From a virus (lineage: Duplodnaviria > Heunggongvirae > Uroviricota > Caudoviricetes), in IMG/VR virus record IMGVR_UViG_2706794662_000007: a DNA stretch of 64,000 bases; one strand, 5' to 3'. Positions 1,020 through 62,539 of this stretch are shown here, piece after piece. The translations under genes and the position numbers were made by a program. The notes beneath the pieces are model-generated. The model was not told where the DNA came from. It did not search any database and saw only the letters and a list, made by a program, of their open reading frames with translations. The first letter of the stretch is position 1, and every line of letters starts with the position of its first letter.

Positions 1020-2270
1020 GCCTCTCTTCTTCCCGCACATTACAGGTGGGTAGCTGCAACTCTCTCTCTCTCGCTATACCGGTACGCCGCCGTTCCAGAA
1101 CCGGCATCGAGCCTTTTCCCGAAATCCACACAGGCAACTCGACCGTTTCCCTGAAAATCCCCAGCCGTTCCCCCGAAGGCAACCCAGCCGTTTCTGTAGC
1201 TGGATGCAACCTTTTCCCTGTATGGACCGAAGGCTGACCGTAGGGGGTGTTACGGGGGATAAAATCAGGAGTTGAATAAATACGAAAAAGGAGGCGACCC
1301 CCCTCCTTCCCTCTCCACTTATACATACCTGGCTTCTTCGCTATACATGTTGTGTTTTATCTGTCTCAACCTCTCTATAGGCGTTAATGCTCACTCCTTC
1401 CAGAATGTTCTATACGGCGACTATTTCTGTTGGTGAATTGGGTGTGTTGTTTTCTCTGTCGGTGTATGTGGTTTCGTTAGTTTTGCGGTGGTTCTTCTAT
1501 GGGGGTGTTCTCGTCGTTTTGGTGATTGTTCTTCTCCGTGTATGGAGTAATGGCAGGTGGGCGATTGCTTTCGTTATTGTGTTTGAGTTGTTTGTCTGGA
1601 GTGTGTGAAGGCTTTTGTAGTTATTCGTGTATTGGGTAATGGCGTTTCCCGTGATTGTTATGTTTCGTGTCTTTTGGGATTGAGAGAAACCTTGCGGTTA
1701 CAGGCTTCGTTAGGGTTTCAGCGGTTCAGGTGTTTCTTCGCTGTTTGGGTAATGGCGTGTCGTGGGTATCGCGCGTATGAATGTTTTCGGATTGCCTGTG
1801 AAAGTTAGGTTGGTTGTCCGGTAGCCTGGGGAGAAGAGGTGGGTCTTTTCGGTAGCCTGCCATAAAGAGGTTGGTTGTTTTGGGTAATGGCATATGTGTT
1901 ATTTGGTTGTTTTGTTATGCCTGAAAATAAGTTGTTTATATGGTTGTGTAACGCAACGGGAGCGATTTTGAGCGTGTGTTTTTGTTGGTAGTGTGTTGAG
2001 TCGTCTGTGGTGAAATTTGGACGCTGTGGCGCTATCTGCTGCGTAGAATTACGGGTATAAGAAGTGATGTGTGATAACGTCAATTTTTTAGACCAAATCG
2101 GGAGAAAGCGTTGATGTTTCGTTGATCTGTTATTTAGTTGTTTTCTTATTGGTATAAACAACCATAACCTATTGATATTTAATGATGTGATTGCTGGTAT
2201 GGGAGGGTAGTAGTGGCGATCAACGGGTTCTTATAGAAAAGAATCAAATTGTGACCGCCATTATCAACGG
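1020..2270. other. ORF-poor, strand-skewed non-coding region with direct repeats (candidate packaging site, origin or ncRNA locus)
   Basis: no convincing ORF; top strand almost A-free (G+T rich) across ~1380-2100; TGGGTAATGGC-like 11-mer at 1544, 1633, 1746, 1881; CCGTT(T)CC motif at 1088, 1142, 1164, 1186. Confidence 0.5.
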
Positions 2271-2275
2271 TTTGA

Positions 2276-2461
2276 TTAGATGAGATGGTCTAATTCATCA
2301 TCTATCATGGCTTTGACGCTGGAGTCGTTCACTCCATATTTATTTATGAGCTGTTTCAGCTCTGTCGAAAACTGAAGGTAGATATCGTGAGCGTTTTTCA
2401 CTGTAGGTTCAACGCCACTCATTTCAAGCGCCTTTAGTAGATATGAGTCTTCTTTAAGCAT
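2276..2461 (-). CDS. hypothetical small protein
   Basis: 61-aa ORF in phage-like context. Confidence 0.3.
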   Translation of the reverse strand: MLKEDSYLLKALEMSGVEPTVKNAHDIYLQFSTELKQLINKYGVNDSSVKAMIDDELDHLI

Positions 2462-2497
2462 AAATTCTCCGTTATCTAGTATGAAGCGATTGCCGGA

Positions 2498-2797
2498 TTA
2501 CCATTGCCAGCACTCAAGCCCTTCAACGACCGGTGCGCCACAATCAAAATGTACAGAGTTAAAGCCTACATCAAGTACTTTCTGAATGTTCGCAATCGCA
2601 CCCTCGGATATACCATATCGACGCAACTCATCTTTCCAGTCATCGTCCTGTAACCCGGCGTGGACAATGCAACCGTACTCAATTTGTGAAACCCAATCCA
2701 GCTCATTGCTTGCGATCATGAATCGGCGAGCATCTTCCTCTGATGTATGAGATGAACTGATCAATGCCACCTGGTAGGCTTGGGTAATGTTCAACAT
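2498..2797 (-). CDS. hypothetical protein
   Basis: 99-aa ORF, ATG at 2797, palindromic motif AAAACAAGTTGTTTT 13 nt upstream. Confidence 0.45.
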   Translation of the reverse strand: MLNITQAYQVALISSSHTSEEDARRFMIASNELDWVSQIEYGCIVHAGLQDDDWKDELRRYGISEGAIANIQKVLDVGFNSVHFDCGAPVVEGLECWQW

Positions 2798-2809
2798 TTC
2801 AACTACTCC

Positions 2810-2875
2810 AAAACAAGTTGTTTTCTTATGTGGCTTATTATCTCAATCAACAAAAGGTAGAAAACAAATTGTTTT
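2810..2875 (-). promoter_or_regulatory. two copies of palindromic motif AAAACAA-N1-TTGTTTT (2810-2824 and 2861-2875), candidate operator/promoter
   Basis: perfect 7-bp inverted arms; same motif recurs upstream of many minus-strand genes. Confidence 0.5.
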
Positions 2876-2909
2876 AGGGCTTGTGTAAATCAGGAGGGAT
2901 TGTGTCTAT

Positions 2910-2938
2910 ATGAAAATGCCCGGCGTGTTGCCGGGCAT
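2910..2938 (-). terminator. rho-independent terminator downstream of metG
   Basis: GC hairpin ATGCCCGGC/GCCGGGCAT followed by T-run in minus sense. Confidence 0.7.
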
Positions 2939-2958
2939 TGCGAAGAGAGGTTGTTTAA

Positions 2959-4897
2959 TTACTTAACCTGGTGGCCAGGTTTAGCACCAGCATCCGGGCT
3001 TAACAGGAAGATATCTTTCCCGCCAGGACCGGCAGCCATCACCATGCCTTCAGAGATACCGAAGCGCATTTTACGTGGTGCCAGGTTAGCCACCATAATG
3101 GTGTGACGACCAATCAGTGCCTGTGGATCTGGATAAGCGGAACGGATGCCTGAGAAGACATTACGCTTTTCACCACCGAGATCCAGCGTCAGGCGAAGCA
3201 GTTTGTCAGAACCTTCGACAAACTCCGCGTTTTCAATCAGCGCCACACGCAGGTCAACTTTGGCGAAGTCGTCAAAGGTGATGGTTTCCTGAATCGGTTC
3301 GTCAGCCAGTGGGCCAGTTACCGGTGCAGCTGTGGCTTTCACTTCTTCTTTGGATGCTTCCACCAGTGCTTCCACCTGTTTCATATCGATACGGTTATAC
3401 AGTGCCTTGAACGGATTCACTTTATGGCCCAGAAGCGGTTGCTGGATACCATCCCAGGTCAGTTCTGTATTCAGGAATGCTTCTGCACGTTCAGTCAGTT
3501 TCGGCAGTACCGGTTTCAGGTACGTCATCAGCACGCGGAACAGGTTAATGCCCATAGAGCAAATCGCCTGCAGATCTGCATCGCGACCTTCCTGCTTCGC
3601 CACCACCCACGGAGCCTGTTCATCGACATAGCGATTAGCCAGGTCAGCCAATGCCATGATTTCACGGATAGCTTTACCAAATTCGCGGCTTTCCCATGCT
3701 TCGCCAATCACTTCAGCGGCATCAGTAAAGGTTTTGTACAGTTGCGGGTCAGCCAGTTCGCTTGTCAGCACGCCGTCAAAACGCTTGTTGATAAAGCCTG
3801 CATTACGGGAGGCCAGGTTAACCACTTTGTTCACGATATCGGCATTCACGCGCTGAACGAAATCTTCCAGGTTGAGATCGATATCATCAATGCGCGAAGA
3901 GAGTTTCGCAGTGTAGTAGTAACGCAGGCTGTCAGCGTCAAAATGATTCAGCCAGGTGCTGGCTTTAATAAAGGTGCCGCGAGACTTGGACATCTTCGCG
4001 CCGTTCACCGTCACATAGCCGTGAACAAACAGGTTGGTCGGCTTGCGGAAGTTGCTGCCTTCCAGCATGGCAGGCCAGAACAGACTGTGGAAGTAAACGA
4101 TATCTTTGCCGATGAAGTGGTACAGCTCGGCGGTGGAGTCTTTCTTCCAGTATTCGTCGAAGCTTACGCTGTCGCCGCGCTTGTCGCACAGATTCTTGAA
4201 AGAACCCATGTAGCCAATCGGCGCGTCCAGCCAGACGTAGAAATATTTGCCCGGCGCGTTCGNNNNNNNNNNNNNNNNNNNNNNNNNNNNNNNNNNNNNN
4301 NNNNNNNNNNNNNNNNNNNNNNNNNNNNNNNNNNNNNNNNNNNNNNNNNNNNNNNNNNNNNNNNNNNNNNNNNNNNNNNNNNNNNNNNNNNNNNNNNNNN
4401 NNNNNNNNNNNNNNNNNNNNNNNNNNNNNNNNNNNNNNNNNNNNNNNNNNNNNNNNNNNNNNNNNNNNNNNNNNNNNNNNNNNNNNNNNNNNNNNNNNNN
4501 NNNNNNNNNNNNNNNNNNNNNNNNNNNNNNNNNNNNNNNNNNNNNNNNNNNNNNNNNNNNNNNNNNNNNNNNNNNNNNNNNNNNNNNNNNNCTCTTCGCT
4601 GTGCGTCGAGTGATAGTTGTCATAGCTGATGTTAAAGCCTGCGAAATCAGTCTGATGTTCCTGACTCATTTCGCCAATCATCTGTTCCGGTGTGATACCA
4701 AGCTGCTGTGCTTTCAGCATGATTGGCGTACCGTGGGCATCGTCGGCACAGATGAAATTAACCTCGTGGCCGCGCATTCGCTGGTAACGAACCCAGACAT
4801 CAGCCTGGATGTGCTCCAGCATATGGCCGAGGTGGATTGAGCCGTTAGCGTACGGCAGCGCGCACGTCACCAGAATTTTCTTCGCGACTTGGGTCAT
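2959..4897 (-). CDS. metG: methionyl-tRNA synthetase (interrupted by N-run 4263-4591)
   Basis: N-terminus [29 protein letters not shown] (HIGH motif) and C-terminus ...GAKPGHQVK match enterobacterial MetG as recalled; KMSKS present; ~140 residues hidden in the gap. Confidence 0.95.
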
Positions 4898-5054
4898 AGT
4901 AGGCATTACTTCTTTGTAGTGAAAAGGGGCTTGATAGTAACAAAATGGCCTTATGTCTGCCATGTGATAACAGCATTTCTCATAAATGATTAAATGTCGT
5001 AGCTGGAGTACACTACAAGGCGACAATTGCGCAAATTAAAATAAAGGAGACGGG

Positions 5055-6155
5055 ATGAGCGAGTCCAAATCGCCGGATGCCCTGAGAGCAATGGTAGCCG
5101 GTACGCTGGCTAATTTTCAGCACCCAACCCTGAAACACAACTTGACTACGCTTAAAGCGTTACACCATGTTGCGTTGATGGATGACACACTGCATGTCGA
5201 ACTAATCATGCCTTTCGTGTGGAATAAGCCTTTTGAAGACCTGAAAGAGCAATGTAGTGGTGATCTGCTCCGTATCACTGGCGCAAAGGCTATTGACTGG
5301 AAGCTGTCGTACAACATTGCCACGCTTAAGCGCGTCAAAAACCAACCAGGCATTAATGGCGTTAAGAACATTATCGCCGTCAGCTCAGGCAAGGGCGGCG
5401 TGGGTAAATCCTCCACAGCAGTAAACTTGGCACTGGCTTTGGCTGCTGAAGGTGCGAAAGTTGGTATTTTGGATGCCGATATCTATGGTCCATCAATTCC
5501 AACCATGCTGGGCGCGGAAAACCAACGTCCAACCTCACCGGACGGTACTCACATGGCACCTATCATGTCTCATGGCCTGGCAACCAACTCTATTGGTTAT
5601 CTGGTCACCGATGACAATGCAATGGTGTGGCGTGGACCGATGGCGAGCAAGGCGCTGATGCAGATGTTGCAGGAAACACTGTGGCCTGATCTGGACTATC
5701 TCGTTCTCGATATGCCACCGGGCACTGGTGATATTCAATTGACGCTGGCGCAGAACATTCCTGTAACTGGTGCGGTTGTGGTAACTACGCCGCAAGACAT
5801 CGCGCTGATCGATGCGAAGAAAGGCATTGTGATGTTCGAAAAAGTCGAAGTGCCGGTACTGGGTATCGTTGAAAACATGAGTGTGCATATTTGCAGTAAC
5901 TGCGGTCATCACGAGCCAATTTTTGGCACCGGTGGAGCACAGAAACTGGCCGAGAAATACAACACGCAGTTGTTAGGCCAAATGCCACTTCATATCTCTC
6001 TTCGTGAAGATCTGGATAACGGAACACCAACCGTTATTAGTCGTCCAGATAGCGAATTTACGGCTATTTATCGTGACCTCGCAGATCGCGTTGCTGCCCA
6101 AATGTATTGGCAAGGTGAAGTAATACCTGGCGAAATCGCATTCCGCGCAGTGTGA
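5055..6155 (+). CDS. apbC: Fe-S cluster carrier ATPase ApbC/Mrp
   Basis: 366 aa, P-loop GKGGVGKSS, CxxC near C-terminus, near-identical to E. coli Mrp as recalled; divergent from metG as on the chromosome. Confidence 0.95.
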   Translation: MSESKSPDALRAMVAGTLANFQHPTLKHNLTTLKALHHVALMDDTLHVELIMPFVWNKPFEDLKEQCSGDLLRITGAKAIDWKLSYNIATLKRVKNQPGINGVKNIIAVSSGKGGVGKSSTAVNLALALAAEGAKVGILDADIYGPSIPTMLGAENQRPTSPDGTHMAPIMSHGLATNSIGYLVTDDNAMVWRGPMASKALMQMLQETLWPDLDYLVLDMPPGTGDIQLTLAQNIPVTGAVVVTTPQDIALIDAKKGIVMFEKVEVPVLGIVENMSVHICSNCGHHEPIFGTGGAQKLAEKYNTQLLGQMPLHISLREDLDNGTPTVISRPDSEFTAIYRDLADRVAAQMYWQGEVIPGEIAFRAV

Positions 6156-6767: not shown

Positions 6768-7286
6768 CTAAAAATCAAANNNNNNNNNNNNNNNNNNNNN
6801 NNNNNNNNNNNNNNNNNNNNNNNNNNNNNNNNNNNNNNNNNNNNNNNNNNNNNNNNNNNNNNNNNNNNNNNNNNNNNNNNNNNNNNNNNNNNNNNNNNNN
6901 NNNNNNNNNNNNNNNNNNNNNNNNNNNNNNNNNNNNNNNNNNNNNNNNNNNNNNNNNNNNNNNNNNNNNNNNNNNNNNNNNNNNNNNNNNNNNNNNNNNN
7001 NNNNNNNNNNNNNNNNNNNNNNNNNNNNNNNNTTTAAAGGAAGATAGGTTCCCCATAGTAGCTGTCTGCCGTGCGCTCGTGTGAAATACCGGGCCATCTT
7101 CGGATTGCTATGCTGCTTAGGAGCGCCTGGTCTGTATGTCTGATACCCGGCCAACATCCCATCAAACCTGTATAGAGGGAATGTAACAACTCCTTCGCTT
7201 TCATCGATCCACTGTCTATATGGATGCACATCATAGCGGTAGTTACGAGTTAGCAAATGAGCTTCCAGCTTTCCAAATTTAGTCAT
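6768..7286 (-). CDS. hypothetical protein, C-terminal part masked by N-run
   Basis: ATG at 7286 with GAGGGA SD; ORF runs into N-run 6780-7032, so the end is unreliable. Confidence 0.3.
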   Translation of the reverse strand: MTKFGKLEAHLLTRNYRYDVHPYRQWIDESEGVVTFPLYRFDGMLAGYQTYRPGAPKQHSNPKMARYFTRAHGRQLLWGTYLPLXXXXXXXXXXXXXXXXXXXXXXXXXXXXXXXXXXXXXXXXXXXXXXXXXXXXXXXXXXXXXXXXXXXXXXXXXXXXXXXXXXXXXFDF

Positions 7287-9338: not shown

Positions 9339-9611
9339 TTAACCCGCAGTGCNNNNNNNNNNNNNNNNNNNNNNNNNNNNNNNNNNNNNNNNNNNNNNNN
9401 NNNNNNNNNNNNNNNNNNNNNNNNNNNNNNNNNNNNNNNNNNNNNNNNNNNNNNNNNNNNNNNNNNNNNNNNNNNNNNNNNNNNNNNNNNNNNNNNNNNN
9501 NNNNNNNNNNNNNNNNNNNNNNNNNNNNNNNNNNNNNNNNNNNNNNNNNNNNNNNNNNNNNNNNNNNNNNNNNNNNNNNNNNNNNNNNNNNNNNNNNNNN
9601 NNAGTTGCCAT
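9339..9611 (-). CDS. hypothetical protein almost fully masked by N-run
   Basis: ATG at 9611 (MAT...) behind conserved junction GGAGAGTGATATG; body is N. Confidence 0.25.
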   Translation of the reverse strand: MATXXXXXXXXXXXXXXXXXXXXXXXXXXXXXXXXXXXXXXXXXXXXXXXXXXXXXXXXXXXXXXXXXXXXXXXXXXXXXXXXXXXXTAG

Positions 9612-31135: not shown

Positions 31136-33058
31136 AGCTGCGCCCCTCTTTAACTTCCAGCGTAATAGTTTCCCGGAACCATGACTTCATCTCTTTATGG
31201 GAGATAATCAGCACAGTACCTCGCTCGCGAGCTTTGGACTCCAGAATACCCATGAGGCGTTCAAGACCGGCTGTATCGAGTGCATCGTCAATTTCGTCGC
31301 CGATAAACAAATCGATGTTTTTACTCGCCCGGTTACTAACCAGATCCTGCAATGCCAAAGAACACGCAATGCGAACCTTCCGCTTCTCACCACCAGAGAG
31401 GGTCTGGAACGACTTACTTGAACCTTTCTTCTGCACACTAATGTTGAATTTGTCGCGATACTCACCTTTTTTGGTGACATCCATCGTCGACCACTCAGCA
31501 GTAATATTCCCGTCAGACAACGTATTGAGATACTCGGCAGTGCGTGTATTCAGGAAAGGCGTAACAGACGTCAAAATATGAGAACGCACCCCGGCAGGAG
31601 AGTAGACCTGACGAGCTTTTTCCAATAGCAACGTTTGTTCCTGAATAGCCTTCAACTCATCTTTTAAGGACTTGAAGGTAGACTTACTGGATACCAGGTT
31701 ATCTTCGTGTCTGGCGATAAGAGCAATAAACGGATTAATCTCTTTTGATATACGATCGACCTCAGTACGAGCACGAGTCACAAGAGACTCAATAGCAACA
31801 ATCTCCTTCTCACGATGACGCAAAGATGAGAGTTGTTTCGTAAGCTCTTCAATCCGGGCAATGATAGCCGTTACATCAGGTGTCGTTTTAACAAGGGCAG
31901 ACTCAATGCTTAACGCTTTCTCAAGATTCGTTTTGTGTTTAGCCATTGCCTCTGCAAGTGTCTTCGCCTGACCAATTTCCTGACGTGCTTGTTCAATGAA
32001 ATTCTCCTTCACCGTTGATAGATCTTCTTCGCAGTAGGCTTTGCCACAAGTAGGGCATGGTGATCCCACTTTAGTACCAACCTCTTCTGCTTTGGTCTTA
32101 AAATTACGCGCGCGGTTCATTGCATCAGCCTGACTATTTTCTGTAGCTTTGATGCTTGCCCGAATATCAGTTATCGCACCACGAACNNNNNNNNNNNNNN
32201 NNNNNNNNNNNNNNNNNNNNNNNNNNNNNNNNNNNNNNNNNNNNNNNNNNNNNNNNNNNNNNNNNNNNNNNNNNNNNNNNNNNNNNNNNNNNNNNNNNNN
32301 NNNNNNNNNNNNNNNNNNNNNNNNNNNNNNNNNNNNNNNNNNNNNNNNNNNNNNNNNNNNNNNNNNNNNNNNNNNNNNNNNNNNNNNNNNNNNNNNNNNN
32401 NNNNNNNNNNNNNNNNNNNNNNNNNNNNNNNNNNNNNNNNNNNNNNNNNGATTGTCGACTCCAATTTGGTTTTAACCACATCCATACGTGCGGCAGCTGC
32501 ATTAGCTCGCTCACGAGCAATAGCGTAGGCGCGTGTCAGTCTGTCAACGCCAGCGGCTTCTTCTACGATGGTTTTGAGGTTTTTGTCGGACATTCCAGGT
32601 AAATCTGGCATAGCTTCTTGGCTCGCATAGATGGAAGCCATGAAAACCTCTTTAGATGCACCGATCAGACGCTCGACGAACTCTTGCGTCAGCGCATCTT
32701 TGCCTTTCGTCATATCGCCGTCTTCACCACGAACGATAAGCCGATTTTTGAACTCTTTGTGTTTACGGTGACGAATGATCGCATATCTCTTGCCTTCATC
32801 CTCGATGGTTACTGCAACACGACAGTTCTTTTCATGGTCGGTAGACAACACATCGTCACCCTTCACACCATGAGCTGTTTCGCCATAAAGACACCACATC
32901 AGGCTATTCATTAGCGTTGACTTTCCAGAGCCATTACTTGATGCGGAACTATCATCACTATTAACACCCTGAATGAGCACTAAACCACGCTGATCTAACT
33001 CGACCTCCGCGCTGGCGATAGCCATAAAATTCTCAACCTGGAGCTTTAAAAACTTCAT
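31125..33058 (-). CDS. sbcC: SbcC/Rad50-like ATPase (interrupted by N-run 32187-32449)
   Basis: N-terminal Walker A GSGKST; C-terminal signature LSGGE and Walker B DEIDDALD; coiled-coil middle. Confidence 0.75.
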
Positions 33059-39999: not shown

Positions 40000-40046
40000 C
40001 TTATTAACCTCTATGCTTCATGCGTAAAGCTAAATGACAATTTTTT

Positions 40047-40871
40047 TTAATATCCGGCGTATTCGTATTCTTCATTTAGACCGTATTCTTGTGGAGTGAT
40101 ACCAGGACAACATAACTCAAAGGCGAACTTGCGCCATTTGATTTTTTCTTCTGACGATTGTTTGTTATTCGCCGGTGCAATGTAGTCATATTCCCATTTG
40201 CCGTTGCGAAGTAAAATGAATCCGCAGTTATTGCCGAAGTCTTCGTCTGCATAACGTATTACAAACTCAAGGTGCGGGAACTTTCTAGCCATCGCTTGAT
40301 AAATTGGTTTTGGCATAGACCAGGCTGTTTCAAAGCGAATCACCAACTCACCACCAGTTGCGGCATGTCTTGCAAGACGTTTTTTATAGATTCGTTTTGC
40401 ATATGCTCGAACGTGTGTATGGCGGAAATTATGGCCGTACTTAATACGTGTAGGGATACGTTTTACGGGCATTTCGATGTTGTAGGCATTCCATTTTGTT
40501 CCCCAATTAGCTCGCGACCAGTCAAACCATGAGTAATAGCCATAGCGACGATAATTCTCAAGCCGCATAAGAGCCTGCTCTTTGATTTTGCGAATTTCCT
40601 TGCGTGTCATTCCTGATTCACGCATAGCTAATTCGACCTGTTCTGGAGTCTTTAATTCACCGAACATGTGGTCGTAAACTGTTTCGCCCGCCATTGCAGA
40701 GGCCATGCGCCTGATATGATTGTTTTCTTCCATTTCTATACTTTTCGGACGTCTGCAAATGGTATTAAAGTCAATTAGACCTTTTTTGTTAGTTATGGCA
40801 CGTATGAAATCTAAGCGTTGTTTATTTGTACCACCTATGACTCGGATTTCGTTTGTAATGTGGTTGGGCAT
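40047..40871 (-). CDS. hypothetical protein (low-GC block)
   Basis: 274 aa; contains His-hydrophobic-His (HTHV) and nearby YAKRIY, weak and non-canonical resemblance to HUH-type nucleases. Confidence 0.45.
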   Translation of the reverse strand: MPNHITNEIRVIGGTNKQRLDFIRAITNKKGLIDFNTICRRPKSIEMEENNHIRRMASAMAGETVYDHMFGELKTPEQVELAMRESGMTRKEIRKIKEQALMRLENYRRYGYYSWFDWSRANWGTKWNAYNIEMPVKRIPTRIKYGHNFRHTHVRAYAKRIYKKRLARHAATGGELVIRFETAWSMPKPIYQAMARKFPHLEFVIRYADEDFGNNCGFILLRNGKWEYDYIAPANNKQSSEEKIKWRKFAFELCCPGITPQEYGLNEEYEYAGY

Positions 40872-40878
40872 AATTAAC

Positions 40879-40892
40879 TTAACCTTTTAACA
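40879..40892 (-). promoter_or_regulatory. palindromic motif AACAAATTGTTTT upstream of gene 40047..40871
   Basis: same motif family as at 2810, 16403, 17131. Confidence 0.45.
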
Positions 40893-40966
40893 AATTGTTT
40901 TCTTGTGTGTGATAATAACGAGAATAAAACGGCGTCCAACTGGACGCCTGATCTTCTTAATGAGAG

Positions 40967-41797
40967 TTATTTCACTGTAATGAAAGGAGTGTTAGCCCCT
41001 TGAGTCATGTACTGCGGTAACTGGCCATTCCATTTATTGATGGCTTCCAGTTCCATAACGTTCGGGTTTTGACGCAGAGCTTCACCGCGCAGACGAATGG
41101 CGTCTGCTTCTGCTTGCGCACGAGCACGGATAGCATCAGCTTCACCATTAGCCTGTTCACGTAGCATATTCGCCTCAGCTTTACGTTGTTCAACTTCCTG
41201 CTGACGTTGCAGAGTACGCTGGTTAGCCGTTACTTTGGCGTTGATAGATTCAATGACGGTTTTTGGGTAATCAGGCTTTCCAACCCATGACAGGCTCAGT
41301 ACCTCAATACCAACCGGAGACATCTCTTTCTGAATATCTTTCAGTGCGTTGTCCAGCAATTGCGCCTTACCACCGTCGATAAATGAGTCAGTGGTCATAC
41401 GGCTGGCCAAACGGTTTAGAGAGTCGGCAATTTTCTGACGCAGATCTGATTCGGTGATATCGTCTACGCCTTTGCGATAGGTCTGGAACACCGTCGTTAC
41501 CTTGTCACGATTAACCAGATACGCAACGCCAATTTTGTGACCAATAGCAGTACCGTCACTCATCTGGAATGTGAACGGTTCGTCGTAGGTCTTCATTTGT
41601 TTGAAGGTCGGGAATACGTAAAGTTCGGTGTTAAGACCTGTCCATTGGCGACCAACGCCAACCACTTCACCGATCCCTTTGTCTTCACCTAATTTGTTTA
41701 CTTTGATGCCAACGTATCCAGGCTCCACGCGATCACAGCCAGTAAGACCCATTGTGCAAATAGCCGCCAGAGCAACTGCAAGTAAACCTTTCTTCAT
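40967..41797 (-). CDS. SPFH/band-7 family lipoprotein
   Basis: 276 aa, lipobox LTGC after signal peptide, prohibitin-like core and C-terminal coiled coil. Confidence 0.65.
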   Translation of the reverse strand: MKKGLLAVALAAICTMGLTGCDRVEPGYVGIKVNKLGEDKGIGEVVGVGRQWTGLNTELYVFPTFKQMKTYDEPFTFQMSDGTAIGHKIGVAYLVNRDKVTTVFQTYRKGVDDITESDLRQKIADSLNRLASRMTTDSFIDGGKAQLLDNALKDIQKEMSPVGIEVLSLSWVGKPDYPKTVIESINAKVTANQRTLQRQQEVEQRKAEANMLREQANGEADAIRARAQAEADAIRLRGEALRQNPNVMELEAINKWNGQLPQYMTQGANTPFITVK

Positions 41798-41800
41798 TAC

Positions 41801-42001
41801 TTATTTCCCCTTTGCTTTGATTAATGAGTTGATAAACTTACGACCAGCAATAAGACCGATTACAGGAGCACCAAAACCAACGATAACTCCAAACATGACG
41901 GCTAAATCACTCTTGGTAGAAATCAGCGACGGAACCAGTAAACCGTAGATGAGAGCCACTGAAACGCCTGTGGCTACTGCCAATAGATAGATTTTGATCA
42001 T
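41801..42001 (-). CDS. small membrane protein, likely partner of SPFH protein
   Basis: 66 aa, two hydrophobic segments, immediately upstream of the SPFH gene. Confidence 0.4.
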   Translation of the reverse strand: MIKIYLLAVATGVSVALIYGLLVPSLISTKSDLAVMFGVIVGFGAPVIGLIAGRKFINSLIKAKGK

Positions 42002-42093
42002 GTGTTTTCCTATGTGGTTGTTATGCGAAAATAATAAGTAAGTACTTATATATTTTCAAGAGATAAAAAAGGCGTCCTGTGGACGCCTTGTGT

Positions 42094-43184
42094 TTACTCT
42101 TCTACTGACTCGGTGGGGTTGTCTTTTGCTCTTCGGTCGTCGATTGCCTGCAAAGCCGCAATGATTTCAGCCAGTGGCTTCTCCCGATACATCTCGACGA
42201 TCTGCGATTTGGTGTATTTCTTGTCACCAATTTCAACTCGCCCGCTGGCGTTCTTTGGCAGGTATCCTTCTTCCAGCATGTACTCGACGAGCGATTCGAT
42301 AACGTCGAGGCCACGAGTAGGATCGAAGTAGAATTTCCAGGTGCATTTGCCATACGGTGGTGCAACTTTGTTTTTGATGCATTCTGCGCCTACGTCCTGG
42401 CCGATCTTCTCTTTACCATCCTTCATCACCGATGCACCAAGACGGATACGTACAGAAGCGTAGAACTTCGGTGAATCTCCACCTGGAGACGTAGTAGGGT
42501 CGCCAAACATTACACCGATTTTTGTGCGAACCTGATTCAAGAAGATGATGCAGGCGTTGTATTTGCGTGCCCACAAAGCCAGAGTAGGGAAGTTCGCACT
42601 TGTCGCACGAGCCAGTGCCGTATTGTCGTTCATGTTTAGCTGATCTTTGTCTTTGGCAGTGCCTTCAGCCATCTTTTCGAACTTCTCGGCTTTGGAGTTC
42701 GGAACCATAGACGCAAGTGAGTCAGCCACGATACAGATAGGTGCTGATTCAGGAATAAGCTCTTCATCACGTACCAATTTAAGAATTGTGCCGATCAACT
42801 CTACAGAGTCTTCGAAGGTATCAGGCTGCTTGTATACCCACTGACCGTCATCCTCATCTGCATTCAAACCATTGGCTACAGCCAGGCCAACGTCAAAACT
42901 GTTCTCATGATCGAGGANNNNNNNNNNNNNNNNNNNNNNNNNNNNNNNNNNNNNNNNNNNNNNNNNNNNNNNNNNNNNNNNNNNNNNNNNNNNNNNNNNN
43001 NNNNNNNNNNNNNNNNNNNNNNNNNNNNNNNNNNNNNNNNNNNNNNNNNNNNNNNNNNNNNNNNNNNNNNNNNNNNNNNNNNNNNNNNNNNNNNNNNNNN
43101 NNNNNNNNNNNNNNNNNNNNNNNNNNNNNNNNNNNNNNNNNNNNNNNNNNNNNNNNNNNNNNNNNNNNNNNNNNNTTTTGCCAT
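42094..43184 (-). CDS. RecA-like recombinase (interrupted by N-run 42918-43175)
   Basis: IIFLNQVRTKIGVMFGDPTTSPGG...FYASVRIRL matches the RecA core; ATG at 43184 with AAGGAG SD. Confidence 0.75.
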
Positions 43185-61242: not shown

Positions 61243-62539
61243 TGTTGTTTTACCTCCATATGTTGATCGATTTGCTCATGTGTTTCTTTTGTTGTTTCTT
61301 CAAGCAACGCCGCATACACGTCAGTGATCGCTGTTTGTGATGTGGTGCTCTTCTTAACCATGCTATTAATCGTTACACTGTCACGTTTTCGTTTTAAAGT
61401 TCTGGCTTGTTTATTCCGTTCTTCAACCTCCTTAATGAGCGCGGTCATATCTTCGAAATACAGAGATTCTCCTTTACGAATCTCTTCAACCATCATTTTT
61501 AACGCCTTGCATTTGCCTGCTTTGATAGCGGTTGCGCACGACTGGAATGAAGTTCGAGGAAGACGGTTTTCTTTGAAGGCAAGAATGGTGTGCTGGCAAA
61601 CGGAGTAGCTGCAATATGCCGACTCACCGTTTATNNNNNNNNNNNNNNNNNNNNNNNNNNNNNNNNNNNNNNNNNNNNNNNNNNNNNNNNNNNNNNNNNN
61701 NNNNNNNNNNNNNNNNNNNNNNNNNNNNNNNNNNNNNNNNNNNNNNNNNNNNNNNNNNNNNNNNNNNNNNNNNNNNNNNNNNNNNNNNNNNNNNNNNNNN
61801 NNNNNNNNNNNNNNNNNNNNNNNNNNNNNNNNNNNNNNNNNNNNNNNNNNNNNNNNNNNNNNNNNNNNNNNNNNNNNNNNNNNNTAGCAATCCTGACCAC
61901 CTTCCAAGCAAATTCCGCCATTACGCCATCACATGCCTTCCCAGCATCAATAACGATATGCACCAGATCCAACTGGCTTTTGCACATGTCGCAAAGAGAC
62001 GCATACTCACTCTCTCTGATTACATTTACGGCATCATTAGCCCCTTTATTAAGCAAGACTTCCAACAGATTTTTCGGGGTAACGAAATCTGCTTTCAGAG
62101 ATAATGTCTTTTCACCACTTATCGAACGCAAGTACTCTTCGTAGTTATTCTTCATCAAACCGCTGCTGCGCATTGCTAGAACTGCTTCTTGAATGGCCGC
62201 TTCAATAGTTTCGTCGTTTGAAAGACAAAAAACGGTATTTGTGTAGATCACTCTGCCATCAAGCCATGCTCCAACCTGCACTTTAAGACTGAGCGGGTTT
62301 TCTTTGCTAATAAAAACAACTAATGCAGAACGTCGTGCACAAGAAGGTTCACCCCATACGTGTAACTTAACCTTCAGATAAGGTAGCCCCGGTAGCGGGA
62401 TCTCGACCAAACGAGTGGCGATATGATCCATTGCTGTTTTTACCGCTTTTTCAATGATGTCTAGTCGATTGCTCTCGCTGATTTCTAAACCAGTTTTATC
62501 AATGATGTCGCAGGCTAATTTCTGAATTTCGTCTTTCAT
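61239..62539 (-). CDS. hypothetical replication-associated protein (interrupted by N-run 61635-61884)
   Basis: two ORF pieces either side of the gap, between primase and ligase; frame continuity cannot be verified. Confidence 0.35.

What the first reader, a model, noticed from the sequence alone, without database searches (positions are those of the whole stretch)
40967..42001. SPFH/band-7 lipoprotein with a small membrane partner
A lipoprotein with an SPFH (stomatin/prohibitin-like) core sits directly downstream of a 66-aa double-hydrophobic protein, mirroring the bacterial SPFH plus NfeD-like membrane partner arrangement. In a phage-plasmid this pair could organise membrane microdomains for exclusion or lysis control.
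Basis: partly seen in the sequence, partly recalled or inferred. Interest (0 to 1): 0.45.

Follow-up and report, generated by a model that had tools for sequence, protein, structure and literature searches.

The report
Phage SPFH lipoprotein with hairpin partner
This phage-plasmid carries a self-contained two-gene unit for a prohibitin/HflK-like membrane-scaffold lipoprotein and a tiny two-helix membrane protein; the pair travels together, and is sometimes fused, in hundreds of phages and many bacteria, yet its function has never been tested.

Summary
On the minus strand, a 66-aa two-helix membrane ORF (41801..42001) lies 3 nt upstream of a 276-aa lipoprotein (40967..41797). The lipoprotein has a strong SPFH/Band-7 match (Pfam E=2.6e-30) and a full-length prohibitin/HflK-type predicted fold. 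The window is an SSU5-like phage-plasmid, 100% identical here to p09EL50.

The small protein is not NfeD. It has no OB-fold and no Pfam hit. It is nevertheless a dedicated partner:
- It precedes the SPFH gene in 66 of 80 species-level loci, against 0-2 of 80 in control windows.
- It keeps a P-x-L-I-S-A-x-S-D turn between its two helices.
- It is fused in frame to the SPFH protein in many lineages.

The pair moves as a cassette between SSU5-like, P1-like, P2-like, lambdoid and virulent (N4-like, rV5-like) phages. SPFH homologues occur in 373 phage records.

In the window the pair has its own terminator, promoter and terminator. The promoter contains a palindrome that recurs about 10 times in the element.

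Best reading: a periplasm-facing, inner-membrane SPFH ring or cage built 1:1 with the hairpin and expressed early. The client (FtsH, a DNA-entry channel, or general membrane protection) is unknown. Moderately interesting; a new variant of a known kind.

The parts
42069..42089 (-). Intrinsic-terminator-like hairpin (AAGGCGTCCACAGGACGCCTT followed by TTTTAT). It ends the upstream RecA-like gene and insulates the cassette.
   Evidence: scan; sequence; conserved in Cyrano, SSU5 and a Y. pestis plasmid contig.
42031..42059 (-). Sigma-70-type promoter of the cassette: TTGAAA, 17 nt spacer, TATTAT (10 of 12 consensus positions).
   Evidence: The hexamers and the spacer are conserved in four SSU5-like elements whose flanks diverge. 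Cyrano RNA-seq shows the pair expressed independently of its flanking genes.
42034..42049 (.). Perfect palindrome ATAAGTA-NN-TACTTAT between the -35 and -10 hexamers; candidate operator shared with about 9 other intergenic sites of the element.
   Evidence: 10 matches with up to 2 mismatches, against 0.2 expected; 8 of the 10 lie 15-120 nt upstream of minus-strand ORFs.
41801..42001 (-). Gene for the 66-aa two-helix hairpin partner. Predicted topology: N-terminus and basic C-terminal tail in the cytoplasm, short turn in the periplasm.
   Evidence: (PHROG 1130, E=9e-26). The same family lies upstream of the SPFH gene in 66 of 80 loci, against 0-2 of 80 in controls.
41906..41932 (-). Codons for the conserved inter-helix turn P24-S-L-I-S28-T-K-S-D32 of the partner. 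Ser28 is invariant and Pro24 nearly invariant.
   Evidence: Alignment A2 of free and fused partners; motif census.
40967..41797 (-). Gene for the 276-aa SPFH/Band-7 lipoprotein (prohibitin/HflK-like).
41735..41797 (-). Signal peptide and lipobox L18-T-G-C21. The next codon (41732..41734) encodes Asp22, the +2 residue and the inner-membrane retention signal in E. coli.
   Evidence: Sequence; Cys21 invariant or nearly invariant in the family.
41171..41731 (-). SPFH domain proper (residues 23-209 by Pfam; beta/alpha core at 21-176 in the model).
41069..41263 (-). Long coiled-coil helix (CC1, residues 179-243), the wall element of SPFH cages.
   Evidence: AlphaFold2 model with pLDDT 87-97 over most of the helix; full-length superposition on prohibitin, HflK/C and erlin.
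41015..41035 (-). Family-specific C-terminal motif K-W-N-G-x-L-P. Trp256 and Gly258 are invariant; the motif is the likely cap-forming region.
   Evidence: Alignments A1, A3 and A5.
40931..40948 (-). Intrinsic-terminator-like hairpin GGCGTCCAGTTGGACGCC followed by GTTTTATT, which closes the cassette.

Best explanation
The two genes form one transcription unit (terminator, promoter with operator-like palindrome, partner gene, SPFH gene, terminator) that encodes a two-component membrane scaffold.

Shown:
- The large protein is an SPFH-superfamily lipoprotein with the full anchor, SPFH domain, CC1, CC2 and C-terminal layout of the cage-forming SPFH proteins.
- The small protein is a conserved two-helix hairpin that is genetically locked to it: adjacent across phyla, often fused, and co-mobilised between unrelated phages.

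Inferred:
- After lipidation at Cys21 the SPFH protein stays on the periplasmic face of the inner membrane. This rests on Asp at +2 and on fused homologues that tether the same domain behind transmembrane helices with a basic cytoplasmic linker.
- The SPFH protein oligomerises into a ring or dome of roughly 20-24 subunits. This is an extrapolation from its 65-residue CC1 helix using the published CC1-length rule.
- Each subunit pairs 1:1 with a hairpin whose conserved P-x-L-I-S-A-x-S-D turn sits at the periplasmic membrane surface under the SPFH domain. The hairpins would supply the transmembrane palisade that a lipid anchor alone cannot, fencing off an inner-membrane patch.
- In phages the unit sits in repressor-controlled early transcription units. 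It most likely acts early in infection or under envelope stress, isolating or stabilising inner-membrane components. By analogy with HflK/C and prohibitins, the leading candidate client is the FtsH-type quality-control machinery. Blocking DNA entry by a superinfecting phage is the main alternative outcome.
For: SPFH identity:
- Pfam Band_7 E=2.6e-30.
- AlphaFold2 model with mean pLDDT 85.8 and the layout beta/alpha core, 65-residue helix, short helix, tail.
- Foldseek full-length hits with probability 1.0 to prohibitin, HflK/C, erlin, stomatin, flotillin and QmcA cages.
- Profile hits to HflK, QmcA, HflC and prohibitin.

Lipoprotein: lipobox LTGC, with the Cys invariant in the family.

Partner linkage:
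- The same hairpin family sits directly upstream in SSU5, Cyrano, P2-like P88, P1-like elements, phiP27, N4-like S6 and rV5-like KB57.
- 66 of 80 species-level loci pass a strict automatic detector, against 0, 0, 0 and 2 of 80 in control windows.
- Most of the remaining loci have fused or variant forms by eye. Two have an IS1 inserted between the genes.
- Natural fusions have the order hairpin, basic linker, signal-like helix with lipobox, SPFH.
- The fused homologue P0314 is modelled with three confident transmembrane helices before the SPFH domain.

Topology: the partner has a +5 C-terminal tail and a neutral turn.

Autonomous unit: promoter and both terminators, conserved in relatives.

Expression, from the 94%-identical Cyrano element:
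- CYRAN_56/57 are at background in LB and rise to log2 7.3-7.7 at 6 h in macrophages.
- The flanking RecA gene and CYRAN_58 stay near log2 4 (PMC9928086 S1 Table).

Early-gene context:
- P88: early operon between cox and A.
- P1-like elements: the tciABC slot of the C1-controlled ban operon.
- Window: a promoter palindrome shared with about 9 other intergenic sites.

Subunit estimate: y = 0.1782x + 10.22 from PMC12624060 gives 21.8 for x = 65.

Purifying selection on both genes.
Against: - Nothing here shows oligomerisation, contact between the two proteins, or localisation. Only monomer models were made.
- Asp+2 is followed by Arg+3. The strength of that retention signal was not tested, and non-enterobacterial homologues have Ser, Thr or Glu at +2.
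- A prophage SPFH protein of similar size in Pasteurella (PM0222) was found in outer-membrane vesicles (PMC9872710). Its membership of this family was not checked.
- Some phages seem to lack this partner: LUZ24-like TL has a different small gene and phiCbK-like Karma is ambiguous. The SPFH protein may therefore work alone.
- No evidence links the pair to FtsH or to any other client.
- The Cyrano data come from a relative, not from this element. Other scattered Cyrano genes also rise in macrophages, so partial derepression cannot be separated from a specific stress response.
Confidence: 0.6

Rival explanations
1. Superinfection-exclusion or anti-phage module. The inner-membrane hairpin and the periplasmic lipoprotein would block genome entry of incoming phages, or the action of colicins, in the manner of T4 Imm/Sp, T5 Llp or HK97 gp15. 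The SPFH ring would act only as the platform.
For: - A small inner-membrane protein plus a lipoprotein is the usual make-up of exclusion systems (established knowledge).
- In P1-like elements the cassette occupies the slot where P1 has tciA-C, annotated as tellurite or colicin resistance.
- It moves as a cassette among temperate phages and is expressed from early units.
- The partner evolves 6-8 times faster than the SPFH protein, and its allele has been exchanged by recombination, as expected of a specificity subunit.
- PHROG places the partner in 'moron, auxiliary metabolic gene and host takeover'.
Against: - No PADLOC model matches either protein.
- The SPFH protein is under very strong purifying selection (dN/dS about 0.03), unlike typical conflict genes.
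- The same pair sits in ordinary chromosomal neighbourhoods in Dyella, Leptospira, Xenorhabdus and Sphingomonas.
- In Cyrano lysogens grown in LB the pair is at background, so it would not protect a resting lysogen.
Confidence: 0.15
2. Lysogenic-conversion surface factor. The lipoprotein would be sorted to the outer membrane or to vesicles and act on the animal host as a TLR1/2 agonist, affecting adhesion or capsule, as reported for the prophage SPFH protein PM0222 of Pasteurella multocida.
For: - PM0222 is a 25-35 kDa prophage 'HflK/C-like' protein found in vesicles. It signals through TLR1/2, and its deletion attenuates virulence (PMC9872710).
- The Cyrano homologues are induced inside macrophages.
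Against: - Asp at +2 predicts inner-membrane retention in E. coli.
- The obligate partner, and the fused forms, are alpha-helical transmembrane proteins that can only sit in the inner membrane.
- The family is common in strictly virulent phages and in environmental bacteria.
- Whether PM0222 belongs to this subfamily was not tested.
Confidence: 0.07
3. Lysis-timing device. The 66-aa protein would be a class II holin or antiholin-like protein (two helices, basic tail), and the SPFH lipoprotein would corral it to delay or sharpen hole formation.
For: The size, two transmembrane helices and charged C-terminus fit the holin architecture. SPFH cages can enclose membrane proteins (structures listed).
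Against: - The pair is never next to endolysin or spanin genes in the elements examined. Cyrano has a separate holin-endolysin-Rz/Rz1 block.
- The neighbours are replication, recombination and nucleotide-metabolism genes.
- The pair is present and fused in non-phage chromosomal loci.
- A covalent fusion of a holin to a periplasmic scaffold is hard to reconcile with hole formation.
Confidence: 0.05
4. A canonical SPFH-NfeD operon, with the small protein being a truncated NfeD.
For: The operon order matches: a membrane partner upstream of the SPFH gene, as in ybbJ-qmcA and yqiJ-yqiK. A QmcA-YbbJ complex has been solved (8z5g).
Against: - No NfeD (PF01957) or any other Pfam hit at E<=0.1.
- No OB-fold is possible in 66 residues that are almost entirely two transmembrane helices.
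- Hinderhofer et al. 2009 (PMC2636767) found NfeD homologues only for SPFH subfamilies 1, 2 and 5. They found none for the HflK/C (SPFH3), prohibitin-like (SPFH4) or remaining subfamilies (6-12).
- The protein faces the periplasm, whereas QmcA faces the cytoplasm (orientation stated in PMC2636767).
Confidence: 0.03

Closest known systems
HflK/HflC (E. coli FtsH modulators; SPFH3)
   Same: - Best sequence-level match among solved structures (HflK, profile E=1.2e-6).
- Full-length fold match.
- SPFH domain on the periplasmic side of the inner membrane. For the window protein this is inferred; for HflK/C it is established.
- Historic link to the phage lysis-lysogeny decision through FtsH and lambda CII.
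   Different: - One SPFH gene, not a K/C heterodimer pair.
- A lipid anchor instead of an N-terminal transmembrane helix.
- A separate two-helix partner.
- NCBIfam HflC and HflK scores are far below the cut-offs (30 against 134 bits; 19 against 159 bits).
- No evidence of FtsH binding.
Prohibitins / bacterial p-prohibitins (SPFH4 of Hinderhofer et al. 2009)
   Same: - Top Foldseek hits are human PHB1/2.
- Similar size (about 275 aa) and CC1 length, so a similar predicted ring size of about 22.
- Some homologues are annotated 'prohibitin family protein'.
- SPFH4 was predicted to face the periplasm and to lack an NfeD partner.
   Different: - Only 15-18% identity to the solved cage proteins in the Foldseek alignments, about 15-17% for the prohibitin chains.
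- Lipoprotein anchor.
- A dedicated hairpin partner, which that survey does not report for SPFH4.
- Assignment of this family to SPFH4 was not tested against that paper's models.
QmcA-YbbJ and other SPFH-NfeD operons
   Same: A two-gene operon with a membrane partner encoded upstream, and an SPFH cage plus accessory membrane protein (8z5g).
   Different: The partner has no NfeD OB-fold domain. The orientation is opposite, because QmcA is cytoplasmic. The partner is fused N-terminally in some lineages, with a retained lipobox.
P1 TciA-TciB-TciC (TerB-like, ban operon)
   Same: It occupies the identical slot between upl and the tRNA/ban genes in P1-like phage-plasmids, inside a C1-controlled early operon. 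It also includes small membrane-associated proteins.
   Different: No sequence relationship. The Tci function itself is inferred only by homology in the P1 annotation.
T4 Imm/Sp, T5 Llp, HK97 gp15 (superinfection exclusion proteins)
   Same: A small inner-membrane protein and/or lipoprotein, made early by phages and acting at the envelope (established knowledge).
   Different: No homology was detected: no Pfam hit for the partner and no PADLOC hit. None of those systems uses an SPFH scaffold.

Membership tests
SPFH / Band 7 superfamily (PF01145) | Profile match above the curated threshold | tested here: met
   106.2 bits against a cut-off of 23.6, E=2.6e-30, residues 23-209.
SPFH / Band 7 superfamily (PF01145) | Membrane anchor, alpha/beta SPFH core, long CC1 helix, CC2 and C-terminal cap segment | tested here: met
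   AlphaFold2 model with pLDDT 85.8. Full-length Foldseek matches to prohibitin, HflK/C, erlin, stomatin, flotillin and QmcA.
SPFH / Band 7 superfamily (PF01145) | Assembly into a large ring or cage on a membrane | not testable with these tools
   Only monomers were modelled. About 22 subunits is extrapolated from CC1 length using the regression in PMC12624060.
HflK / HflC | Equivalog HMM score above the NCBIfam cut-off | tested here: not met
   HflC 30.2 bits against 134.4; HflK 18.7 bits against 159.4.
HflK / HflC | Two paralogous SPFH genes in one operon, each with an N-terminal transmembrane helix | tested here: not met
   There is a single SPFH gene with a lipobox. The neighbouring gene is a 66-aa hairpin.
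HflK / HflC | Binds and encloses FtsH | not testable with these tools
   No data.
SPFH-NfeD operon | Partner carries the NfeD C-terminal OB-fold domain (PF01957) | tested here: not met
   No Pfam family at E<=0.1. The 66 residues are almost all two transmembrane helices.
SPFH-NfeD operon | Membrane partner encoded immediately upstream in the same operon | tested here: met
   3-nt gap, single promoter and single terminator. Conserved in 66 of 80 loci.
Bacterial lipoprotein | Signal peptide ending in the lipobox [LVI][ASTVI][GAS]C | tested here: met
   L18-T-G-C21. The Cys is invariant or nearly invariant in family alignments.
Bacterial lipoprotein | Inner-membrane retention (Asp at +2 in Enterobacteriaceae) | tested here: inconclusive
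   Asp22 is present and fused homologues are transmembrane-tethered. Sorting itself was not measured, and residue +3 is Arg.
PHROG 200 / PHROG 1130 (phage protein families) | Profile match | tested here: met
   E=3e-108 and E=9.3e-26. The window protein matches positions 80-359 of the 379-position PHROG 200 profile. Profile positions 1-79 have no counterpart in it, which may correspond to the fused partner-SPFH forms; this was not checked.
Known anti-phage defence systems (PADLOC-DB 2.0) | Match to any component model | tested here: not met
   No family at E<=0.1 for either protein.
Moron (autonomous promoter-gene-terminator insert) | Own promoter and terminator between phage genes | tested here: met
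   Consensus scans, conserved in relatives. Expression is uncoupled from the flanks in Cyrano.
Moron (autonomous promoter-gene-terminator insert) | Expressed in the lysogen, independent of the lytic programme | tested here: inconclusive
   At background in LB lysogens of the relative Cyrano, and induced in macrophages. The promoter carries a palindrome shared with other promoter regions of the element.
Class II holin | Two transmembrane helices and a charged C-terminus, encoded in a lysis cassette | tested here: not met
   The architecture fits, but the gene is not near lysis genes in the elements examined, and it is fused to an SPFH protein elsewhere.

The most novel reading that the evidence does not exclude
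The pair defines an unrecognised, very widespread two-component SPFH system: a lipid-anchored, periplasm-facing prohibitin-like cage whose transmembrane wall is supplied by an obligate 1:1 hairpin subunit. Phages of many unrelated families would deploy it early in infection to capture a specific host inner-membrane machine. Capturing FtsH would stabilise phage regulators or membrane proteins. Capturing a DNA-entry channel would exclude competing phages.
Probability: 0.25. Interest if true: 0.7.

Novelty: new variant of a known kind. Interest (0 to 1): 0.5.

Why it matters
What bacterial SPFH proteins other than HflK/C do is a long-standing open question. This subfamily is compact (two genes, one of them 66 codons). 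It is carried by at least 373 sequenced phages, including model-friendly coliphages and phage-plasmids, and it comes with a built-in clue to its architecture, a partner that is fused in some lineages.

If the pair forms a periplasmic cage with a hairpin palisade, it would be a new way of building an SPFH microdomain. If its client is FtsH or a DNA-entry channel, it would be a new phage strategy for host takeover or exclusion. It would also be directly testable by expressing one small cassette in E. coli.

If it is only a general membrane stabiliser, it remains an ordinary accessory gene whose annotation ('SPFH domain-containing protein', sometimes wrongly 'serine protease' or 'transposase') can be improved. 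The usually unannotated partner gene can then also be called.

Tried and rejected
- NfeD identity of the partner: rejected. There is no Pfam hit and no room for an OB-fold.
- Known defence system: PADLOC found nothing.
- HflK/HflC orthology: rejected on NCBIfam scores.
- The first attempt to scan genomes with the 58-sequence alignment failed because it was too diverse. A 13-sequence subset worked.
- The profile search with the partner alignment reached only enterobacterial small proteins. Short, often uncalled ORFs and the word index limit it. Partner conservation was therefore measured on DNA loci instead.
- Literature searches found no functional study of this phage family. 'Band 7' in the phiCbK paper refers to gel bands. 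The AH14b paper only speculates about HflKC-like control of lysogeny.
- The 'superinfection exclusion protein' next to the SPFH gene of PhiSH19 is a soluble acidic protein, not a relative of the partner. That SPFH protein also belongs to a different subfamily.
- Pseudomonas phage TL gp11 and Caulobacter phage Karma gp183 could not be assigned to the partner family.
- Whether Pasteurella PM0222 belongs to this subfamily could not be checked, because no sequence was held.
Full report
**1. What is there**

The window is an SSU5-like phage-plasmid. Region 40000-43000 is 100% identical to plasmid p09EL50 of E. coli O104:H4, to Shigella sonnei plasmids and to 'Escherichia phage CMS-2020a'. It is syntenic with Salmonella phage SSU5 and with Escherichia phage Cyrano.

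Two ORFs lie on the minus strand, between a RecA/UvsX-like recombinase gene and a DUF1281/Api92-like gene:
- a 66-aa ORF at 41801..42001;
- a 276-aa ORF at 40967..41797, 3 nt further downstream.

The large protein matches Pfam Band_7 at E=2.6e-30, well above the curated cut-off. It also matches PHROG 200 'lipoprotein' at E=3e-108. Its N-terminus ends in the lipobox L-T-G-C followed by Asp. The Cys is invariant in an alignment of 58 family members that are only 30-60% identical.

The small protein has two hydrophobic helices, a neutral turn and a +5 C-terminal tail. It matches PHROG 1130 'membrane protein' but no Pfam, NCBIfam or PADLOC model.

Both genes are under purifying selection. Against SSU5-type relatives whose synonymous sites are saturated, dN/dS is about 0.03 for the SPFH gene and about 0.1-0.2 for the small gene.

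**2. The pair is its own transcription unit**

On the coding strand the order is as follows:
- a terminator-like hairpin just after the recombinase gene (42089..42069);
- a sigma-70-type promoter, TTGAAA-17-TATTAT (42059..42031);
- a Shine-Dalgarno sequence and the small gene;
- a second Shine-Dalgarno sequence and the SPFH gene;
- a second terminator-like hairpin (40948..40931).

The hairpin, both hexamers and the whole spacer are conserved in Cyrano, SSU5 and a Yersinia pestis plasmid contig, although the flanks differ.

The spacer holds a perfect palindrome, ATAAGTA-CT-TACTTAT. Allowing two mismatches, this motif occurs 10 times in the window, against 0.2 expected. Eight of the ten sites lie 15-120 nt upstream of minus-strand ORFs. 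The cassette promoter therefore looks like one member of an element-wide family of regulated promoters.

Public RNA-seq exists for E. coli LF82 carrying Cyrano, which is 94% identical here. The two genes (CYRAN_56 and CYRAN_57) are at background in LB. They rise to log2 7.3-7.7 after 6 h in macrophages, while the flanking recombinase gene and CYRAN_58 stay near log2 4 (PMC9928086, S1 Table). This agrees with an independent, conditionally expressed unit. It comes from a relative, and other scattered Cyrano genes rise in the same sample.

**3. The small protein is a dedicated partner, but not NfeD**

The same two-gene arrangement is found in unrelated phages:
- P2-like phage P88, inside the early operon between cox and the replication gene A;
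- P1-like phage-plasmids such as RCS47;
- the lambdoid Stx phage phiP27, where the partner is not annotated;
- the virulent N4-like Erwinia phage S6;
- the virulent rV5-like Klebsiella phage KB57, with one small gene in between;
- probably a crAss-like phage.

A scan of one genome per species returned 80 loci. They come from Enterobacterales, Xenorhabdus, Morganella, Sutterella, many Dyella, Cupriavidus, Leptospira, Sphingomonas, Bacteroidota and others.

A strict automatic detector was applied to these loci. It required a hydrophobic stretch, then P/S-x-[LMFIVW]-[LIVMF]-[STN], then a second hydrophobic stretch.
- It found the partner in the 480 nt upstream on the same strand in 66 of 80 loci.
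- It found it in 0, 0, 0 and 2 of 80 control windows.

Most of the remaining 14 loci have a fused or slightly variant form by eye. In two E. coli and Shigella prophage copies an IS1 sits between the two genes.

An alignment of free partners and fused N-terminal domains has an invariant Ser28 and nearly invariant Pro24 and Gly38. The turn reads P-x-L-I-S-A-x-S-D.

Among the 150 best 50%-identity cluster representatives, more than a dozen are longer proteins. In these the hairpin, a basic linker and a signal-peptide-like helix with a retained lipobox precede the SPFH domain. One such fusion arose within the P1-like lineage itself (P0021). Gene fusion, conserved adjacency and co-mobility together are strong evidence for a 1:1 physical partnership.

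The partner has none of the defining features of NfeD. Hinderhofer et al. 2009 found NfeD homologues only for SPFH subfamilies 1, 2 and 5. They found none for the HflK/C, prohibitin-like or remaining subfamilies (PMC2636767).

**4. Structure and topology**

With a 63-sequence alignment, AlphaFold2 gives a confident model (mean pLDDT 85.8). Its elements, in order, are:
- a signal helix;
- a beta/alpha SPFH core (residues 21-176);
- a 65-residue helix (179-243);
- a short helix (245-255);
- a flexible tail carrying the family motif K-W-N-G-x-L-P.

Foldseek aligns the whole chain, at probability 1.0, with subunits of the solved prohibitin, HflK/C, erlin, stomatin, flotillin and QmcA cages, at 13-19% identity. 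At the sequence-profile level the nearest solved relatives are HflK, QmcA, HflC and prohibitin, with E from 1e-6 to 4e-4. It is a distinct subfamily, not an HflK or HflC orthologue.

A fused homologue from Rhodopseudomonas (P0314) is modelled with three confident helices before the SPFH domain. The positive-inside rule puts both ends of the hairpin and the basic linker in the cytoplasm. The conserved turn and the SPFH domain then lie in the periplasm.

For the unfused window protein, Asp at +2 is the classical inner-membrane retention signal in E. coli. The Arg at +3 was not evaluated.

A published regression of subunit number on CC1 length (PMC12624060) gives about 22 subunits for a 65-residue CC1. 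This is an extrapolation only.

**5. Distribution and what it implies for function**

Translated BLAST finds homologues in 373 phage records.
- Temperate elements: SSU5-like, P1-like, P2-like, Stx/phiP27 and Burkholderia phages.
- Strictly virulent phages: N4-like, LUZ24-like, rV5-like, phiCbK-like, crAss-like, Lak and jumbo phages.

In the phages examined the gene sits among early or DNA-metabolism genes, never in a lysis cassette. In P1-like elements it replaces tciA-C inside the C1-controlled ban operon.

Many bacterial copies lie in ordinary chromosomal neighbourhoods. The module is therefore a general bacterial membrane device that phages have repeatedly acquired.

These facts favour a role in organising or protecting the inner membrane during early infection or envelope stress. 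The HflK/C-prohibitin precedent makes FtsH-type quality control the leading candidate client. Superinfection exclusion stays open, for three reasons: the make-up of a small inner-membrane protein plus a lipoprotein, the tci slot, and the faster-evolving, recombining partner. Against it stand the extreme conservation of the SPFH protein, the chromosomal copies, the absence of PADLOC matches and the low expression in resting lysogens.

**6. Verdict**

The gene is already annotated in databases as 'SPFH domain-containing protein', and sometimes misleadingly as 'serine protease'. I found no description of the dedicated hairpin partner, its fusions, the cassette behaviour or the breadth across phages in the searched literature. 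I rate it a new variant of a known kind, of moderate interest.

Noticed in passing
window 13036, 19576, 20241, 25076, 29789, 34490, 42034, 45575, 51158, 59246 (16-nt sites): A palindromic motif, ATAAGTA-NN-TACTTAT, with up to 2 mismatches, recurs 10 times against 0.2 expected. Eight of the ten sites lie in intergenic DNA 15-120 nt upstream of minus-strand genes, including DNA-metabolism genes. It looks like an element-wide operator or early-promoter element whose regulator is unknown.
   Followed up: partly
window 40047..40871 (-): The DUF1281_C / Api92-like gene just downstream of the cassette is missing at this position in SSU5, Cyrano and several relatives (their matches start at query base 879-889). 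It is a variable insertion next to the cassette terminator.
   Followed up: no
L084 (RCS47) 5006-5833 and L173 (P1) 2090-2786: P1-like phage-plasmids carry the hairpin + SPFH cassette exactly where P1 itself has tciA-tciB-tciC (TerB-like), between upl and the tRNA/ban genes of the C1-controlled ban operon. The two are alternative cargoes in one slot.
   Followed up: partly
L091 (E. coli chromosome) 2018-3828; L090 (Shigella flexneri): An IS1 (insA/insB) is inserted between the partner gene and the SPFH gene in chromosomal prophage copies. This probably uncouples the two genes.
   Followed up: partly
P0021 (347 aa, 8 member sequences; the P1-like partner and SPFH sequences seen in L049): A recent in-frame fusion of the partner to the SPFH lipoprotein within the enterobacterial P1-like lineage. 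It mirrors the ancient fusions seen in alpha-proteobacteria and others.
   Followed up: partly
L172 (Salmonella phage PhiSH19) about 1430-1640 (-): The Vi01-like phage has a different SPFH lipoprotein (lipobox LSGC), preceded by an unannotated 68-aa two-helix ORF. Its inter-helix loop is strongly basic, so the topology is opposite. A small membrane ORF ahead of a phage SPFH lipoprotein may be a recurrent theme with non-homologous partners.
   Followed up: partly
window 41801..42001 compared with L027 3797-3997: Between these two elements the SPFH genes differ by dS 0.11, but the adjacent partner genes differ by dS 0.63. The partner allele has therefore been swapped by recombination independently of the SPFH gene.
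   Followed up: partly
L089 (Yersinia pestis NCTC5923, 108-kb contig): A Y. pestis plasmid-sized contig carries the same cassette (SPFH 94% identical) with the same promoter and terminator. SSU5-like backbones therefore extend to Yersinia plasmids.
   Followed up: no
window 42918-43175 and six other stretches (4263-4591, 6780-7032, 9353-9602, 13174-13428, 32187-32449, 61635-61884): Runs of about 250-330 N are present. One interrupts the RecA-like gene just upstream of the cassette, so that gene cannot be read in full in the window.
   Followed up: no
database annotations of homologues: Family members are variously named 'serine protease', 'transposase', 'outer membrane lipoprotein' or 'regulator of protease activity HflC'. 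The 66-aa partner is often not annotated at all, for example in RCS47 and phiP27.
   Followed up: no
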